Below are positions 13,706-17,849 of a DNA stretch of 30,841 nt, in pieces; position 1 is the stretch's first letter, and every line of letters begins with the position of its first letter. Below the pieces are notes generated by a model. That model saw only the letters and a list, made by a program, of their open reading frames with translations. It was not told where the DNA came from and did not search any database. The DNA lies in contig JBBFKZ010000017.1 in assembly GCA_037481775.1 (NCBI GenBank), forward strand, positions 1 through 30,841. The letters are read 5' to 3'. This DNA is from Candidatus Bathyarchaeia archaeon (GTDB taxonomy: Archaea > Thermoproteota > Bathyarchaeia > Bathyarchaeales > Bathycorpusculaceae). The position numbers and the translations under genes are program-made.

Positions 13706-14650
13706 TCAGGGCCGGTAGCCGCCAAGAGTGCACAAAGCTAAAGCTGCAGCAGTTAAGTCGGCGGTGGTTCCTGGATTGTAAAGGCTATCTGAGTTTCGGA
13801 GTTTTTTATCAAACGTCACAATGCTTTGGCGCCCGTCTTCTGTTTCTACGCCACCCAACTCGAGGATTTTCCGGGCATCATCGGATATTTCGCGGGCTTT
13901 TTCGATGCCGACTTTGCGGGCAATAAACGTGTCAGGTCGTTCAGAGAGAACTTTCAGGAAAGTGTGAATGATAGCAGTGTTTAGACACTTAATTTTCAGT
14001 TGTTGCATAAGATAAGGGTAAGCAAGATCGAATGTTATTGTGTAGTTGTTAACCCACTCATAACAAATGTCATCATAACCAGCGGCAATTTGAAAAACCT
14101 TAAAAAGTGAAACTTGCTCCTTAAGCAGACGTGCCTTTGAAGCTGGATCACGGACATCAAAATCCGGCGCTTCATTTAGCCCGCTTGGTTTGGCGATCTC
14201 AATGGCTTCATAGAGAAAAACCGCATCCTGCGGAGTAGTGGATTCCACAACACGCTTAAGGTTTCGCCTTAGCGTCACAAAATCGAACCTATCTTTGTCC
14301 ATGGGTGTTATGCCAGCGGCCACAGCCAAGGGCACGAACAGCATAATCGTCCCAATCAAGGTGTTACCGCCCTTTTGCCATGCCGCAACGTCCGCAGCAC
14401 AAGTTCGTATAAGCTCACCAACACCTGCATTCTCAATTTTAAGTTGGTTGCAGGCTATCGCGATGCCGCGGCTTGCTGCTTCTTCAAAAGCGTCGCGGGC
14501 AGCAACGGCAGAAGCAAGAAAATGCTCCACGCGTGTGCCTTCAAAACCGACAATGAAGTTCACGTTTCCCGGTTTGTCAGCGCTTACTTCAAGCAGTATA
14601 GCCAGTTCTAAGCATTTTGCGATGTGTTTGGCTTTTTCGGTGCATTGCAT
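13706..14650 (-). CDS. citG: CitG/MdcB-family triphosphoribosyl transferase (archaeal CitG-like)
   Basis: LEVSADKPGNV, GGNTLIGTIML, PDTFIARK, NPGTTADLTAA motifs of the CitG family. Confidence 0.88.
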   Translation of the reverse strand: MQCTEKAKHIAKCLELAILLEVSADKPGNVNFIVGFEGTRVEHFLASAVAARDAFEEAASRGIAIACNQLKIENAGVGELIRTCAADVAAWQKGGNTLIGTIMLFVPLAVAAGITPMDKDRFDFVTLRRNLKRVVESTTPQDAVFLYEAIEIAKPSGLNEAPDFDVRDPASKARLLKEQVSLFKVFQIAAGYDDICYEWVNNYTITFDLAYPYLMQQLKIKCLNTAIIHTFLKVLSERPDTFIARKVGIEKAREISDDARKILELGGVETEDGRQSIVTFDKKLRNSDSLYNPGTTADLTAAALALCTLGGYRP

Positions 14651-14749
14651 GATGGAAAATGGTTTAGAGAAGGTTTATTAACGTTATGTAAAAAACTACA
14701 CACTATTGAAGCTACTGACATAATGAGCTGCTGTTGAAGGAACAGAAGA
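14651..14749. promoter_or_regulatory. Putative bidirectional promoter between the citG-like gene and nucleotidyltransferase 1
   Basis: 99-bp divergent gap with the AT-rich core TTTATTAACGTTATGTAAAAAA, which is TATA-like on both strands. Confidence 0.45.
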
Positions 14750-15766
14750 ATGCAAGCGCGAGAAGGTGAGCTGATCCGAACAGAAAATGGCGTAATTTTC
14801 GATGTAAAAGGCTTAATGCATCCGCCCAGTCGCATCATAGCGTTTCCACGGTTTATTCCTTCTCAGCAAGGCACACGACGAGACTCCAAAAGAGCGTATG
14901 GCAAAATCTACAGTTTCAGTGACCGATTCAAATTTCTTGAGCAAAACATGCCAGAGCTAATAGTGCATGATCCAGTTTTTGACGAAACCCTATGCGAAGT
15001 GCCCCACCACATGGTTGAAAGGCACTATGATCCAGTTGGAAAGCTTGGATTACTACGTACATCCAAGAAGCTGAATACGCTGGAACAGAAAGTGGTGCAG
15101 CTAGCAGAAGAGCTAAAAGAAGCAGCCGGCATTCCTTGGAGCGCCATAGGTATTTCGGGCTCCGTGCTTGTCGAGTTAGCCACTGAGAAGTCGGACGTTG
15201 ATCCAGTGATTTATGGCGCAGAAAACTGTCGTAGAGCGTACGAGGCATTAGAAACCTTGTTGAAGGATGAAGCGTCAGGGTTCAAACCTTACAGTCATGA
15301 GGATCTGAAAGCCTTGTTCGATTTTCGTTCGAAGGACACCATCATGAGCTTCGAAGACTTTTGTCGGGTCGAACGGCGAAAGGCGTTCCAAGGCATTTAC
15401 GCTGGCACTGAGTACTTTATACGCTTCGTGAAGGACTGGAGTGACAATATTGGACAGTACGGCGATGTTCACTACAAGAACGTTGGTTACGCGAAAATCT
15501 CAGCCACGATTGCTGATGATGCTGAAGCGCTTTTCACACCATGCACTTACCAAGTTGAAGATGTCGCAGTTGTTGAAGGCTCAAAATTGGAGCCAATAAG
15601 GGAAGTTTCCTCTTTTAGAGGCAGGTTTTGCAAGCAAGCAAAAAAAGGCGAGAAAGTTACTGTGCAAGGAAAAGTGGAGCGGGTAATTGAAAGGCAGACA
15701 GGCCACGTTTATTATCGCATTATCATTGGAAATAATCCTTCGGATTACATGATACTCGCGCGTTAA
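14750..15766 (+). CDS. Pol-beta-fold nucleotidyltransferase with C-terminal OB-like domain (COG1665-like), paralog 1
   Basis: GISGSVL-x6-SDVDPVIYG NTase signature; N-terminal REGELIRTENGVIFDVKGLMHP; C-terminal SFRGRF..A..GE.V.V.GKVE. Confidence 0.8.
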   Translation: MQAREGELIRTENGVIFDVKGLMHPPSRIIAFPRFIPSQQGTRRDSKRAYGKIYSFSDRFKFLEQNMPELIVHDPVFDETLCEVPHHMVERHYDPVGKLGLLRTSKKLNTLEQKVVQLAEELKEAAGIPWSAIGISGSVLVELATEKSDVDPVIYGAENCRRAYEALETLLKDEASGFKPYSHEDLKALFDFRSKDTIMSFEDFCRVERRKAFQGIYAGTEYFIRFVKDWSDNIGQYGDVHYKNVGYAKISATIADDAEALFTPCTYQVEDVAVVEGSKLEPIREVSSFRGRFCKQAKKGEKVTVQGKVERVIERQTGHVYYRIIIGNNPSDYMILAR

Positions 15767-16836
15767 TGCAGCGCCTTTAAGACTTGCTCATAGTAACGCG
15801 GGCAATAAGTTAAGGTAATCTGGTGAAAACTATGTTTAGGTGATTGAACCTCCTCAAGGTTACCTTCGACAATAATGGTTTCATCTTTTTGGACTTGCTG
15901 ACGAAACTCTTCCATGTAAGAGAAAACGCGCACAACTTCCGCGGCTTCACTAGGTCCATTCAAGACTTCAAGCACTTGCACACCATAAATTGATGGAATA
16001 AAAGGTGCCTCATCATCGGCGGTGACGCGCGCCTTAAGTTTTGCCCAGCCCTTCCGTATAATACGCGTTTGCGAGTCATATTCAGACTCGATTTCACTCC
16101 AAGCTTTAACGGGCTCAAACTCGGCCTTAATTATTCTGCCGCTTTGCGCTCGGTCATCGTATAAGCCGTAAATCATCTTGCGCCGCTGGTGCCAAACAAA
16201 GTCTTTCACATCAAAATTTTTGAAGAGCCAACGTTTACCCCTCATCGCGTCTTCGGACTCAAATTCGTTGCTTAAACTCGAGTGGTCACTGGCATACAGC
16301 TCCGCAAGCGTCTGCCGCATCTTGGCGTTTTCCGCCTTGCCATATACAACGAAGTCTATGTCTGAGTACCGTGGGTGATAGAATCCATGCAGCAGAGAAC
16401 CGAAAACGCCGAAGTTCTGCACTTGCAAACTTGAATGCTCCAACACAATGTTTAGGACAGCTCGCATTGCACGTAATAACTCGTCTTCCGGTTCAACAGC
16501 GAGTAAATACGCCAATCGCTCACCGGGTCTTCGGGCTTCCATTATGGCGTTTTCAGGCACCCCCACAAGCTTCAGTCCCAACATCTCGTGGAAAATCAGG
16601 TAATGCGGATAATTTTTAGCTACAAATTTCATGCCCTCATCATTGTAGAATTTGTAGAAAAGCTGGTTGCTTCCTGTTCTCGGTGCTCTCGGGTCGGCTG
16701 AACTAAAAATCTGGGCGGAGGCGTATTCAGCGTCGCATATGTACGCGTTAGGCGGATGGCTGTAGCCGAAGACGCGGAAGATTAAGCCTTCACGTGTGAG
16801 TATGCCGTCGCGGTCTCTGAGGCTTAAGCTGGCCAA
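15763..16836 (-). CDS. Pol-beta-fold nucleotidyltransferase (COG1665-like), paralog 2
   Basis: [25 protein letters not shown]-terminal [23 protein letters not shown]-terminal FIPSIY and [11 protein letters not shown] start. Confidence 0.8.
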
Positions 16837-17849
16837 ATGTACTCTTCCTCTGAAGTAGCGGTGCCCACTACAACTTGATAGTAGACAGCGCCTGTCTTAA
16901 TGACTTCAACGCGCTCCAGTGTGCCGGCAACTTTGATTTGGCTGCCTTGGCGGGCAACGTTTCGGTAACAACCTATGTTGGAAACTACAAGTTCAGGAAC
17001 GCGGTCGGGCGGCAACTCCGATTGAGCGTCTAATGGCTTGTAGTTGGCGATTTTATAGATAGCTGGACGAAACATAGCTTCTGTGTCATCGCTTACGATG
17101 CACTGAAACTTTACTGGAGCAATTGACGAAAATCGCGCCATACCGTAGAACGTGTTAATCTCCTTTGGCTGCCGTGTGGCGTTATACATGAAGATTTTGC
17201 CTTTGTAGCGTCCTTGAAATTTCCGCGCCGCCTCCAAGCGGTTGCTAACAATGTAACTTAGCTTGCCGGCTTCAACAAGCCGCGCTATTGTAGCTTCAAC
17301 TTTACGGAAGTTCTCCGAACCGTAAACGACAAAGTCTATGTCCGACTCAGCCGCGTGCATGTCTAGGGCTATAGAGCCGTGTATGCCAAAATCCTCTAAG
17401 CCGACGCCGGACTCGGCTGAAAGCAGATCTATGAGCTCGAGCGCCAGTTTTTGCAGGTTATCAGGCGCCTTTGCTTGACGGAGTATTTTGAGGCGTTCTC
17501 TGGGAACAAAAACTTGTTCAATACGGTTCAGTGGTGCAGTGATTAACTCTTTATTGCGCAGGTAACAGTAGTAAAGGTAGTCTGGGAAGTTTTTTCGGAA
17601 CACTGAGATAAATGTCTTATAATTCTTGGCTGTGTAAAGCTTCTCTGCTCGGAAAAGCTGCCTGCTGCCATACTTCCAAGTGCGCTCCAGCATTTCAACA
17701 TCGAAGAGAGATTTGAATTCGGCGGGAATGTATTTGAGGAATGCGAAAACTCGGTTTTGCGGGTGCTCATACCCGAAGGTGTTGAAGATGAAACCGTCTT
17801 TGGTTACGAAAGTGTCTCCGTCAGCTGGAACCCAGTTAGCTGTTGCCGT
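16824..17849 (-). CDS. Pol-beta-fold nucleotidyltransferase (COG1665-like), paralog 3; probable ACG start
   Basis: [23 protein letters not shown]. The frame stays open upstream of the track ATG (17693) to a TGA at 17858-17856 and encodes [22 protein letters not shown], homologous to the paralog N-termini. GGTGA lies 6 nt before ACG 17849. Confidence 0.78.

What the first reader, a model, noticed from the sequence alone, without database searches (positions are those of the whole stretch)
13706..17849. CitG-like ribosyltransferase plus three nucleotidyltransferases: candidate missing enzymes for the methanopterin ribosyl-phosphate tail
Seen: a CitG-family gene is divergent (99-bp gap) from a block of three full-length paralogous Pol-beta NTases, all with intact GS..DxD motifs. 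They lie between the fwdDBAC-mch operon and a RimK-type glutamate ligase. No citrate lyase or malonate decarboxylase ACP gene is in the window. Established: CitG/MdcB transfers triphosphoribose from ATP to a hydroxyl, and a partner NTase-fold enzyme (CitX/MdcG) then links the product to a second hydroxyl, releasing PPi. CitG-like (orf7) and RimK-like (orf5) genes cluster with mch in bacterial H4MPT gene islands. Methanopterin ends in ribitol-ribofuranosyl-5-phosphate-hydroxyglutarate. Inference: the CitG-like enzyme adds ribosyl-triphosphate to the pterin-ribitol, and one or more NTases attach 2-hydroxyglutarate or lineage-specific groups. Three paralogs may mean a novel, further decorated C1 carrier.
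Basis: partly seen in the sequence, partly recalled or inferred. Interest (0 to 1): 0.85.

Follow-up and report, generated by a model that had tools for sequence, protein, structure and literature searches.

The report
Candidate missing enzymes for methanopterin tail
A ribosyl-transferase-like gene and three related nucleotidyltransferase genes in an uncultured archaeon belong to a gene partnership that travels with the methanopterin (one-carbon carrier) genes across archaea, which makes them strong and directly testable candidates for steps of that cofactor's synthesis whose enzymes have never been found.

Summary
A CitG-family gene (13706-14650, -) lies 99 bp from, and divergent to, NT1. NT2 and NT3 are paralogues of NT1 (25-27% identity), and all three keep the G..GS...SDxD motif. 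NT3 has no canonical start codon.

The NTs define a large family of unnamed architecture: a small beta-barrel, a Pol-beta palm and an OB fold.

- **Linkage to CitG.** In 151 Bathyarchaeia genomes the family co-occurs with the CitG-like gene (both in 102, neither in 24). It lies within 5 kb of it in at least 63, usually beside mch, ftr, mtd, RimK/MptN-like or DUF447 genes.
- **Phyletic pattern.** In the window's phylum, NT, CitG-like and RFAP synthase are present or missing in largely the same families. The family is single-copy in 81 of 81 genomes of the Methanobacterium phylum. It was not found in 101 of 101 of the Methanomassiliicoccus phylum, nor on 36 proteobacterial replicons carrying the CitG-like gene.
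- **Fusion and island.** 17 protein clusters fuse the family to HPPK, a pterin enzyme. One metagenome contig embeds two copies in a full H4MPT island.

I read the CitG-like enzyme plus NT as the makers of the ribosyl-phosphate-hydroxyglutarate tail, working like CitG/CitX. The genomic link is strong; the chemistry is inferred. There are exceptions, and the structural neighbours are nucleic-acid enzymes.

The parts
13706..14650 (-). CitG-like (orf7-type) putative ATP-dependent (tri)phosphoribosyl transferase, 314 aa
   Evidence: PF01874, E 4e-68, full length. NCBIfam CitG/MdcB equivalogs score only 39-50 bits against cut-offs of 272-282. hhalign to E. coli CitG: probability 98.7%, 258 columns.
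14651..14749 (.). 99-bp divergent intergenic region between the CitG-like gene and NT1
   Evidence: Coordinates. The same divergent pairing, with gaps of about 100-130 bp, recurs in same-family genomes.
14750..15766 (+). NT1, 338 aa: small beta-barrel (1-~100) + Pol-beta palm (~107-231) + OB fold (245-338). NT1 clade.
   Evidence: AF2 model with pLDDT 96.5. Fold matches. Clade assignment. Orthologues of 70-95% identity carry the name Bathyarchaeia.
15149..15217 (+). NT1 catalytic motif GISGS...SDVDPVIYG (residues 134-156)
   Evidence: G134, G137, S138, D149, D151 and G156 are invariant in 70 family members.
15763..16836 (-). NT2, 357 aa (TTG start). NT2 clade, seen only in Bathyarchaeia-named or window-class rows.
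   Evidence: PF01909, E 3e-6. Motif at 16339-16410. Clade support 100.
16824..17849 (-). NT3, 341-codon open frame. The first canonical start is only at 17693 (289 aa). NT3 clade, shared with Asgard-named proteins.
   Evidence: Motif at 17319-17387.
19411..20289 (+). RimK-family ligase, MptN-like (orf5-type)
   Evidence: PF08443, E 2e-32. NF040720 MptN_Meth scores 284 bits, below its cut-off of 350. The same gene sits near the CitG-like gene in other Bathyarchaeia, in L150/L152 and in Azospirillum.
6538..11970 (-). mch and fwdC/A/B/D-like genes (H4MPT/methanofuran C1 pathway)
   Evidence: PF02289, E 8e-117; also GXGXG, Amidohydro_3, Molybdopterin and Molydop_binding.
13183..13620 (+). Lrp/AsnC-type regulator next to the CitG-like gene; membership in the system is uncertain
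   Evidence: PF01037 and PF13404. Its conservation in other genomes was not checked.

Best explanation
The CitG-like gene is the archaeal counterpart of bacterial orf7. It is read here as the enzyme that puts the alpha-linked ribosyl (tri)phosphate on the ribitol 5-OH of the methanopterin precursor. The NT proteins are a dedicated nucleotidyltransferase family that works on its product.

The most likely reaction is this: the hydroxyl of (S)-2-hydroxyglutarate attacks the alpha-phosphate of the 5''-triphosphoribosyl (or ATP-activated phosphoribosyl) intermediate. PPi (or AMP) leaves, and the phosphodiester that ends methanopterin is formed. That is the logic of CitG/CitX (MdcB/MdcG), carried out by a different NTase family and on a small molecule instead of an acyl-carrier protein.

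Shown:
- gene order, paralogy, motifs and fold;
- co-occurrence and synteny of the NT family with the CitG-like gene and with H4MPT genes;
- fusion to HPPK.

Inferred:
- that the NT acts in H4MPT synthesis (my odds about 0.75);
- that the step is the phospho-hydroxyglutarate tail (about 0.5).

On the paralogues: NT1-type and NT3/'b'-type copies are both ancient and are usually kept together outside methanogens. They are either two subunits or two successive or alternative transfers. NT2 is a later addition in the window's class.
For: 1. **Synteny.**
   - In the 151-genome sample of the window's class, a CitG-like gene and an NT lie within 5 kb on one contig in at least 63 genomes. This is my hand count and is a lower bound, because only 150 of 304 NT matches were listed. 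The pairs span many families and are mostly divergent or adjacent.
   - Contexts: mch..CBS-CitG<>NT-DUF447 (G137); Mtd-Ftr-NT<>CitG-F420_ligase-like-RimK (G085, G072); NT-NT-Ftr-NT-Mtd-fwd-mch (G010).
   - The pair is also adjacent in other classes of the phylum (G400, G295, G302, G288, G348, G370).
2. **Co-occurrence** (tables).
   - Class sample of 151: CitG and NT both 102, CitG only 8, NT only 17, neither 24. MCH and NT both 110, MCH only 12, NT only 9, neither 20.
   - Phylum sample of 151: NT and CitG both 65, NT only 8, CitG only 2, neither 76.
   - None of NT, CitG or TIGR00144 RFAP synthase was found in families f31 (22 genomes), f34 (10), f35 (15), f38 (13), f47 (5) and f49 (3), while all three are present in f32, f37, f42, f44 and f51.
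3. **Other phyla.**
   - 5 of 5 named methanogens have one NT and one CitG-like gene.
   - Phylum of Methanobacterium ERen5: NT in 81 of 81, almost always a single match.
   - Phylum of Methanospirillum: NT in 95 of 121.
   - Phylum of a Methanomassiliicoccus MAG: NT in 0 of 101 and CitG in 0 of 101.
   - 4 Methanomassiliicoccales-type methanogen genomes: NT, CitG and MCH each 0 of 4.
4. **NT absent where the tail should be absent.**
   - 17 NT-negative genomes of 2.1-4.2 Mb have a CitG-like gene but only a low-scoring RFAP-synthase homologue (111-181 bits). This matches the named control H. volcanii, which rings for CitG, MCH and TIGR00144.
   - 36 proteobacterial replicons carry an orf7/CitG-like gene. 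None is among the 21 plasmids with any NT match, all of which are Streptomyces.
   - The Azospirillum H4MPT island has no NT.
   - M. extorquens uses dephospho-H4MPT (PMC6193120, passages).
5. **Direct pterin link.**
   - HPPK (PF01288) is fused to the NT in P0144 and in 17 distinct 90%-identity clusters from four sources.
   - Metagenome contig L152 reads mch-RimK-CitG-HPPK/GCHY-1-PTPS-...-AA_kinase-NT-flavoprotein-DUF6513/PterinBD-NT-DUF447.
   - In Methanolobus the NT lies next to DUF2098 and a GCHY-1 (MptA-type) gene.
6. **The CitG-like gene is tied to H4MPT.**
   - mch-orf5-orf7 is a known bacterial island (PMC3615186, passages).
   - In Methanosarcina, Methanolobus and Methanospirillum it lies in a cluster of Dus-like, CitG, DUF447 and flavoprotein+Fer4 genes. 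DmrX is the archaeal flavoprotein dihydromethanopterin reductase (PMC6193120, passages).
   - No ACP or CitX was found in the genome.
7. **Chemistry fits.**
   - The Pol-beta motif is invariant.
   - The OB domain is not basic: median net charge 0 and pI 6.5 over 70 members.
   - That the CitG product and the methanopterin ribose are both alpha-linked ribose 5-phosphates is recalled knowledge.
Against: - There is no biochemistry of any kind.
- As I recall White's 1996 cell-extract work (not seen here), it gave PRPP, not ATP, as the ribosyl donor, with a separate ATP-dependent hydroxyglutarate step. The CitX-like variant of the mechanism would need that to be reinterpreted. The adenylylation variant would not.
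- In 5 of 5 methanogens the NT and the CitG-like gene are far apart.
- Some genomes have H4MPT genes but no NT:
  - five small genomes of the Methanospirillum phylum have MCH, strong RFAP synthase and a CitG-like gene, but no McrA and no NT even at E 0.01;
  - 12 of 151 class genomes have MCH but no NT, including G007 and G013 (98% and 94% complete), where the CitG-like gene abuts mch;
  - a Methanofastidiosum genome has a CitG-like gene but neither NT nor MCH.
- The nearest solved folds are nucleic-acid enzymes and binders: TUT7, Pol X, CutA and Trf4 for the palm at Z 7-8; SSB, RPA and MCM for the OB fold at Z about 8; Sm, KOW and CAP-Gly-like for the N domain at Z 4.5 or less.
- In Methanobacteriales the NT is divergent from DUF366-PTPS-small radical SAM. 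In Methanospirillum it is in an operon with a Sua5/YrdC-like gene. Both could point to tRNA modification.
- Tandem NT pairs in three other families of the phylum sit in unrelated contexts.
- Distant homologues sit on 21 Streptomyces plasmids.
- There is no detectable similarity to CitX (hhalign probability 0.7%).
- The 'haloarchaeal-type' label is my inference; the tool told no groups.
- Bacterial absence was tested on plasmid or chromid replicons only.
- L152 and the fused forms have relatives labelled Acidobacteriota MAGs, so the family is not strictly archaeal.
Confidence: 0.5

Rival explanations
1. The NT family works in methanopterin or pterin-cofactor synthesis, but at another step. It could nucleotidylate or activate a different intermediate (pterin branch, ribitol 5-phosphate handling). 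It could also add another side-chain unit. In either case the CitG-like enzyme and the NT are pathway neighbours, not consecutive enzymes.
For: - The fusion partner is HPPK, an enzyme of the pterin branch.
- In Methanolobus the NT neighbours GCHY-1 (MptA-type) and DUF2098.
- Methanobacteriales place it beside a PTPS-family gene.
- The NT and the CitG-like gene are unlinked in 5 of 5 methanogens.
Against: - In L150 and L152, HPPK is also fused to GCHY-1, so HPPK fusions mark the pathway rather than a particular step.
- The tightest and most widespread partner of the NT is the CitG-like gene.
- The NT is missing exactly where a CitG-like gene persists without the expected phospho-tail.
Confidence: 0.22
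2. The NT is an RNA, tRNA or other nucleic-acid nucleotidyltransferase. Its OB fold and Sm/KOW-like barrel bind RNA, and it merely shares its phyletic range with H4MPT genes.
For: - The structural neighbours are TUTases, Pol X, Trf4, SSB/RPA and Sm/KOW.
- Methanogen contexts include PTPS (QueD-like) plus a small radical SAM, and a Sua5/YrdC-like gene.
- One tandem pair lies near Pus10.
Against: - All fold scores are in the range the tool calls common (Z 8.7 or less).
- The OB domain has median net charge 0.
- An RNA role does not explain the fusion to HPPK, the placement inside H4MPT islands, or the absence from 101 of 101 genomes of a whole archaeal phylum that also lacks the CitG-like gene.
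Confidence: 0.12
3. The NT serves another C1-pathway cofactor made by the same islands, such as side-chain steps of methanofuran.
For: - The islands mix methanofuran and H4MPT biosynthesis genes: MfnB-like and hydantoinase/ATP-grasp genes in Azospirillum and L152.
- orf1 is reported to be mfnD (PMC5020050, passages).
- fwd genes are neighbours in the window.
Against: - Methanofuran has no ribose or phosphodiester (recalled), whereas the NT's fixed partner is a ribosyl-transferase homologue.
- The fusion is to a pterin enzyme.
- The proteobacterial islands make methanofuran yet lack the NT.
Confidence: 0.06
4. The CitG-like enzyme and the NT build a phosphoribosyl-linked prosthetic group on an unknown carrier protein, as CitG/CitX do on citrate lyase ACP.
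For: - The gene pairing copies citG-citX.
- The NTase motif is intact.
Against: - No ACP of the CitD/MdcC family and no CitX were found in the genome.
- No conserved small-protein partner was seen in the contexts read.
- The CitG-like gene fails the CitG/MdcB equivalog cut-offs.
Confidence: 0.04

Closest known systems
CitG/CitX and MdcB/MdcG (synthesis and transfer of 2'-(5''-triphosphoribosyl)-3'-dephospho-CoA to the ACP of citrate lyase or malonate decarboxylase)
   Same: - A CitG-family enzyme is genomically paired with an enzyme carrying the G[SG]...DxD nucleotidyltransferase signature.
- The proposed chemistry is the same: an alpha-ribosyl 5-triphosphate is made on a hydroxyl, then a second hydroxyl attacks the alpha-phosphate and PPi leaves. 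The mechanism of the known system is recalled.
- The archaeal CitG-like profile aligns with E. coli CitG over 258 columns.
   Different: - No ACP or CitX was found in the genome.
- The CitG-like gene is far below the equivalog cut-offs.
- The NT shows no detectable similarity to CitX and has a three-domain architecture of about 340 aa, against 183 aa for CitX.
- Both the proposed acceptor and the proposed substrate are small molecules.
Bacterial orf7 (CitG-like) and orf5 (RimK-like) of the mch-orf5-orf7 H4MPT islands of methylotrophs
   Same: The same three families cluster in the window, in other Bathyarchaeia, in L150/L152 and on the Azospirillum plasmid. The island is described in PMC3615186 (passages).
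   Different: The proteobacterial islands read here have no NT gene. Archaeal loci and L152-type loci add one to five NT paralogues.
CofC/CofD (F420: nucleotide-activated 2-phospholactate transferred to the ribityl hydroxyl)
   Same: A phosphodiester in the tail of a methanogen cofactor is built through a nucleotidyl-type activation. This is a recalled analogy.
   Different: The folds and families are unrelated, and no homology is claimed. A CofD gene was seen only once in passing, beside a CitG-like gene (L144).
Pol-beta-superfamily nucleotidyltransferases (PF01909: TUTases, Trf4, kanamycin NTase, MNT antitoxins)
   Same: - The palm fold and the catalytic motif are shared.
- 60 of 70 family members hit PF01909.
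- VIA Z is 7-8 to 8oef, 3au2, 6ywn and 3nyb.
   Different: - The N-terminal barrel carries a near-invariant G..HP motif, and the C-terminal OB fold carries invariant P264, Y267, G307 and E310.
- This combination was not found in the PDB by sequence or by fold.

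Membership tests
CitG/MdcB triphosphoribosyl-dephospho-CoA synthase | Full-length match to Pfam PF01874 and homology to E. 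coli CitG | tested here: met
   E 4e-68, profile positions 1-283 of 284. hhalign probability 98.7%, E 3e-16.
CitG/MdcB triphosphoribosyl-dephospho-CoA synthase | Score above the NCBIfam equivalog cut-offs (TIGR03125, TIGR03132, NF002315) | tested here: not met
   39-50 bits against cut-offs of 272-282; only the C-terminal third aligns.
CitG/MdcB triphosphoribosyl-dephospho-CoA synthase | Its acceptor system in the genome: ACP (CitD/MdcC) and CitX/MdcG | tested here: not met
   PF06857 and PF03802 gave no match in the 96.7%-complete genome; the E. coli control rang.
orf7-type CitG-like protein of H4MPT islands | Clustering with mch and a RimK-type (orf5) ligase | tested here: met
   In the window, mch lies 6.2 kb away and RimK 4.8 kb away. 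The genes are tighter in G137, G085, G072, L150, L152 and Azospirillum.
orf7-type CitG-like protein of H4MPT islands | Loss of the gene abolishes (dephospho-)H4MPT | not testable with these tools
   The J. Bacteriol. 2005 papers that report the mutants were not held; this feature is recalled only.
CitX/MdcG phosphoribosyl-dephospho-CoA transferase | Sequence membership (PF03802 or similarity to E. coli CitX) | tested here: not met
   No Pfam hit at E 0.01 or better. hhalign probability 0.7%.
CitX/MdcG phosphoribosyl-dephospho-CoA transferase | Conserved genomic pairing with a CitG-family gene | tested here: met
   At least 63 genomes with the pair within 5 kb. Co-occurrence tables.
Pol-beta-type nucleotidyltransferase superfamily | hG[GS]x9-13Dh[DE]h motif and palm fold | tested here: met
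   The motif is present in all three and invariant in 70 members. PF01909: NT2 28 bits and NT3 21.2 bits against a cut-off of 21, NT1 none. Palm matches at Z 7-8.
Pol-beta-type nucleotidyltransferase superfamily | A third catalytic carboxylate | tested here: inconclusive
   No acidic residue in the palm is invariant. E232 is conserved in 82% and E310 (in the OB domain) in 100% of 70 members.
MptN (tetrahydromethanopterin:alpha-L-glutamate ligase), for the RimK neighbour at 19411-20289 | Score above the NF040720 cut-off | tested here: not met
   284 bits against a cut-off of 350. It is the best-scoring family, and the TIGR00768 rimK_fam cut-off is passed.

The most novel reading that the evidence does not exclude
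Bathyarchaeia and other members of the window's phylum keep two to five anciently diverged NT paralogues where methanogens keep one. On this reading each paralogue adds a different phosphodiester-linked unit, so these uncultured archaea make a methanopterin with a longer or differently decorated tail than any described. The CitG-like/NT pair would then be a general, modular way of building ribosyl-phosphate-X tails on cofactors.
Probability: 0.2. Interest if true: 0.9.

Novelty: new variant of a known kind. Interest (0 to 1): 0.8.

Why it matters
Tetrahydromethanopterin carries the C1 units in methanogenesis, in anaerobic methane oxidation, in the archaeal Wood-Ljungdahl pathway and in bacterial formaldehyde oxidation. 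A 2011 inventory still counted about seven unknown proteins in its synthesis (PMC3087415, table passage). I found no paper in the searchable library that assigns the ribosylation or hydroxyglutarate steps.

This work provides:
- a concrete pair of gene families for those two steps;
- a single-copy target in every genome sampled from the Methanobacterium phylum (81 of 81);
- a clear prediction that separates full H4MPT from dephospho-H4MPT.

That makes the question testable at the bench. It would complete pathway annotation for methanogens, ANME, Bathyarchaeia and Asgard archaea, and would add a possible methanogen-specific inhibitor target. It would also show the CitG/CitX logic reused for a small-molecule cofactor.

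Tried and rejected
- **Complex prediction**, CitG-like (A5) with NT1 (A2): 'no answer', score 0.00. This is not evidence either way.
I reached other phyla through an mcrA primer scan instead.
- **The metagenome scan** with the fused-protein alignment mostly returned plain HPPK genes. Only L149-L152 were useful.
- **PDB sequence search** with the family profile gave nothing below E 0.1.
- **Foldseek** on the whole model returned only OB-fold rows at E 4e-3 or worse.
- **The N-terminal domain** folded alone (pLDDT 90.7) found only SH3-like small barrels at Z 4.5 or less. I make no claim about its fold family.
- **ESM Atlas** returned only archaeal NTP_transf_2 clusters.
- **Papers not held:** the two J. 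Bacteriol. 2005 papers on orf7. Their content is cited from recall only.
- **PF04953** is not in the library; PF06857 served as the ACP family, and its E. coli control rang.
- **TiaS and methanogenesis-marker families** were considered for the NT. Nothing supported them: no NCBIfam hit at E 0.01 or better.
- **orf22 of the bacterial islands as the NT:** rejected. In Azospirillum the gene after DUF447 is MfnB-like. The equation of that gene with orf22 is itself recalled.
- **The careful ML tree** did not finish, so I used the quick tree with SH-aLRT support.

Full report
**What is in the window.** The window is contig C17 of a 1.82-Mb genome in 54 contigs, 96.7% complete. Near-identical proteins are named Candidatus Bathyarchaeia. 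Gene order:
- mch (6538-7503, -) and fwdC/A/B/D-like genes (7516-11970, -)
- a Rieske protein, a peroxiredoxin and an Lrp/AsnC regulator
- the CitG-family gene (13706-14650, -)
- a 99-bp gap
- NT1 (14750-15766, +), NT2 (15763-16836, -), NT3 (16824-17849, -)
- an HTH/membrane protein and an unknown 283-aa protein
- a RimK/MptN-like ligase (19411-20289, +) and FdhD

NT1 and NT2 converge with a 4-bp overlap. NT3 and NT2 overlap by 13 bp.

**The three NTs.**
- They are paralogues at 25-27% identity over their whole length, and the only copies in the genome.
- Each keeps G..GS...SDxDxxxYG.
- NT3's conserved N-terminal 52 codons contain no ATG, GTG or TTG. One same-genus orthologue starts with ATG at that point; another also lacks it. 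I read this as non-canonical initiation or a recent start loss, not decay.

**What the CitG-like gene is.**
- It matches PF01874 end to end (E 4e-68). Its family profile aligns with E. coli CitG over 258 columns (probability 98.7%).
- It scores 39-50 bits against CitG/MdcB equivalog cut-offs of 272-282.
- The genome has neither CitX nor the ACP family.
- So it is a CitG homologue without the CitG job.

**What the NT is.**
- An AlphaFold model of NT1 on a 70-sequence alignment has pLDDT 96.5.
- It shows three domains: a small beta-barrel with a helix (1-~100), a Pol-beta palm (~107-231) and an OB fold (245-338).
- The palm matches TUT7, Pol X, CutA and Trf4 at Z 7-8. The OB fold matches SSB, RPA and MCM N-domains at Z about 8. 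The tool warns that these values are in the common range.
- The N domain folded alone (pLDDT 90.7) finds only SH3-like barrels at Z 4.5 or less.
- No solved relative was found by sequence.
- The family is large: 1419 representatives at 50% identity with E 1e-3 or better, 403 of them at 1e-30 or better.
- 60 of 70 sampled members hit PF01909, and no other informative family appears.
- Invariant residues are G134, G137, S138, D149, D151, G156, P264, Y267, G307 and E310.
- The OB domain is not basic: median net charge 0.

**Synteny.** I searched the same 151 genomes of the window's class with PF01874, the NT profile and PF02289.
- Found in 110, 119 and 122 genomes respectively.
- Cross-tables: CitG and NT both 102, CitG only 8, NT only 17, neither 24. 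MCH and NT both 110, MCH only 12, NT only 9, neither 20.
- By hand count from the coordinate tables, a CitG-like gene and an NT lie within 5 kb on one contig in at least 63 genomes across many families. This is a lower bound, because only 150 of 304 NT matches were listed.
- Contexts read in detail:
  - mch..CBS-CitG<>NT-DUF447 (G137)
  - Mtd-Ftr-NT<>CitG-F420_ligase-like-RimK (G085, G072)
  - NT-NT-Ftr-NT-Mtd-fwd-mch (G010)
- Three tandem NT pairs from other families of the phylum (L237-L239) sit in unrelated contexts.

**Phyletic pattern.**
- *Window's phylum, 151 genomes.* NT in 73, CitG in 67, RFAP synthase TIGR00144 in 59. NT and CitG both 65, NT only 8, CitG only 2, neither 76. Whole families lack all three (f31 with 22 genomes, f34 with 10, f35 with 15, f38 with 13, f47 with 5, f49 with 3), and others have all three. 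Several families of the window's own order have NT, CitG and MCH but no TIGR00144 hit at 1e-10.
- *Named methanogens.* I reached them through an mcrA primer scan. Methanobacterium, Methanobrevibacter, Methanolobus, Methanosarcina and Methanospirillum each have one full-length NT and one CitG-like gene, never adjacent.
- *Phylum of the Methanobacterium genome.* NT in 81 of 81.
- *Phylum of Methanospirillum, 121 genomes.* NT in 95, CitG-like in 118.
  - Of the 26 NT-negatives, 17 are genomes of 2.1-4.2 Mb whose best RFAP-synthase score is only 111-181 bits. This resembles the named control H. volcanii, which rings for CitG, MCH and TIGR00144. Haloarchaea are held to use tetrahydrofolate (PMC8305020, passages). 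That these 17 are haloarchaea is my inference.
  - Six are small genomes with strong RFAP synthase and a CitG-like gene. The five I tested have MCH, no McrA, and no NT even at E 0.01.
  - The remaining three NT-negatives have little or no RFAP-synthase signal: G194 and G233 have neither RFAP synthase nor a CitG-like gene, and G177 has a CitG-like gene but only a very weak RFAP-synthase hit.
- *Methanogens without the H4MPT pathway.* Four Methanomassiliicoccales-type genomes have none of NT, CitG or MCH. A Methanofastidiosum genome has only the CitG-like gene.
- *Phylum of the Methanomassiliicoccus genome.* NT in 0 of 101 and CitG in 0 of 101.
- *Asgard.* Asgard-named proteins (Jordarchaeales, Promethearchaeota, Odinarchaeia) belong to the NT3 clade.

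**Bacteria.**
- tblastn of an NT against 72,556 plasmids finds only 21 Streptomyces plasmids, at 26-28% identity.
- The CitG-like protein finds 36 proteobacterial replicons, and none overlaps the NT list.
- The Azospirillum brasilense p2 island holds, across its span: DHNA, AA-kinase, DUF6513, DUF447, an MfnB-like gene, fhcCDAB, pcbD, mptG, mtdB, an ATP-grasp gene, mch, RimK, CitG, fae, a HisA/F-like gene, a second ATP-grasp gene and a hydantoinase. It has no NT.
- M. extorquens uses dephospho-H4MPT (PMC6193120, passages).
- Chromosomes of methylotrophs could not be searched.

**Direct links to pterin synthesis.**
- One representative, P0144, is HPPK (PF01288, residues 8-134) fused to a full NT.
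- The fused form recurs in 17 distinct 90%-identity clusters of 487-557 aa from JGI, NCBI, ENA and Logan, on contigs up to 137 kb.
- Metagenome contig L152 carries, on one strand: mch, RimK, CitG, HPPK+GCHY-1, PTPS, ATP-grasp_3, hydantoinase, AA-kinase, NT, flavoprotein, DUF6513/PterinBD, a second NT and DUF447.
- In Methanolobus the NT is next to DUF2098 and a GCHY-1 gene. In Methanosarcinales and Methanospirillum the CitG-like gene lies in a cluster of Dus-like, CitG, DUF447 and flavoprotein+Fer4 genes. The last resembles DmrX, the archaeal dihydromethanopterin reductase (PMC6193120, passages).
- The mch-orf5-orf7 island is described for Methylosinus (PMC3615186, passages).

**Paralogues.** A quick ML tree of 42 rows, with SH-aLRT support, gives four clades:
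- NT2: support 100; only window-class or Bathyarchaeia-named rows.
- The methanogen single copies: support 99.
- NT3 plus a 'b' group: support 95; includes the Asgard rows.
- NT1: support 97; includes the HPPK fusions, one L152 copy and a protein labelled Acidobacteriota MAG.

Lineages with two copies keep one NT1-type and one NT3/'b'-type. The copy next to the CitG-like gene is NT1-type in most lineages and 'b'-type in family f20.

**Mechanism.**
- Methanopterin ends in ribitol-(alpha-ribofuranosyl 5-phosphate)-2-hydroxyglutarate. This structure, and the CitG/CitX chemistry, are recalled.
- A CitG-type enzyme makes exactly an alpha-ribosyl 5-triphosphate on a hydroxyl.
- A Pol-beta NTase catalyses attack of a hydroxyl on the alpha-phosphate of a ribose 5'-triphosphate.
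- The pair would therefore build the tail in two steps.
- The distribution fits. The NT is missing where a CitG-like gene persists but the phospho-hydroxyglutarate tail is not expected, namely the proteobacterial islands and the presumed haloarchaea.
- I put 0.75 on a role in H4MPT synthesis and 0.5 on this step.

**Against.**
- There is no biochemistry.
- The recalled extract data favour PRPP as the donor.
- Some genomes have the H4MPT genes but lack the NT.
- The structural neighbours act on nucleic acids.
- Some methanogen contexts look like tRNA modification.
- The NT has no similarity to CitX.

**Literature.** None of these searches returned a paper assigning these steps:
- CitG + methanopterin: 0 papers
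- methanopterin + nucleotidyltransferase + hydroxyglutar: 0 papers
- COG1665: 0 papers
- COG1767 / synthase / methanogen: 1 irrelevant review
- 'methanopterin biosynthesis' since 2014: 30 papers, listing read

Subscription journals, where most methanopterin biochemistry appeared, are not in the library, so prior publication cannot be excluded.

Noticed in passing
window 17694-17849 (-): NT3's conserved N-terminal 52 codons have no ATG, GTG or TTG start. The G102 orthologue has ATG there, and G123 also lacks it. This points to a possible non-canonical start.
   Followed up: partly
P0144, P0291-P0306; L150:2088-3593; L152:3429-4895: HPPK occurs fused either to the NT family (17 clusters) or to a GCHY-1/MptA-type GTP cyclohydrolase. 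In both L150 and L152 the latter fusion is followed by a PTPS gene.
   Followed up: partly
L147:439-2883, L148:1431-3071: RFAP synthase (GHMP-kinase fold) is fused to an N-terminal chorismate pyruvate-lyase-like domain (PF01947) in genomes of the Methanospirillum phylum. This suggests 4-hydroxybenzoate supply is coupled to the first H4MPT step.
   Followed up: no
L143:2501-4495 (664 aa), L144:2288-3577 (429 aa): Some CitG-like genes carry long N-terminal extensions (about 390 and 155 aa) with no Pfam match. In L144 a CofD gene lies close by.
   Followed up: no
L129, L130, L141, L142: In 4 of 4 genomes read from the Methanobacterium phylum, the NT is divergent from a DUF366 gene. In L129 and L130 this is followed by PTPS-family and small radical-SAM genes and CBS proteins.
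   Followed up: partly
L232:6389-7231, L233:4831-5664, L240:13667-14515, L241:1443-2297: A CofE/F420_ligase-like gene (PF01996) sits beside the CitG-like gene in families f20 and f28; in L232, L233 and L240 it lies between the CitG-like gene and the RimK ligase. It may be another tail enzyme.
   Followed up: no
21 Streptomyces plasmids, e.g. NZ_CP108173.1 101073-101993: Distant full-length homologues of the NT family (26-28% identity, 90% coverage) are annotated as hypothetical. The hosts are not known to use H4MPT.
   Followed up: no
G008, G063, G071, G043, G048, G053, G067 and others: Many genomes of the window's order have MCH, a CitG-like gene and NT but no TIGR00144 RFAP-synthase hit at 1e-10. 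The window's own genome has one (C12:6903-7847, E 3e-66). They may carry a divergent or replaced first enzyme.
   Followed up: no
L130:8760-9419, L133:7755-8372: A DUF5612 gene (with an ACT domain in L130) lies near the NT in both Methanobrevibacter and Methanospirillum. In the latter it is in an apparent operon with a Sua5/YrdC-like gene and the NT.
   Followed up: no
window 17948-19272 (-): An HTH protein with a hydrophobic C-terminal half, and a 283-aa protein with an N-terminal membrane segment and no family match, separate the NT block from the RimK ligase.
   Followed up: no
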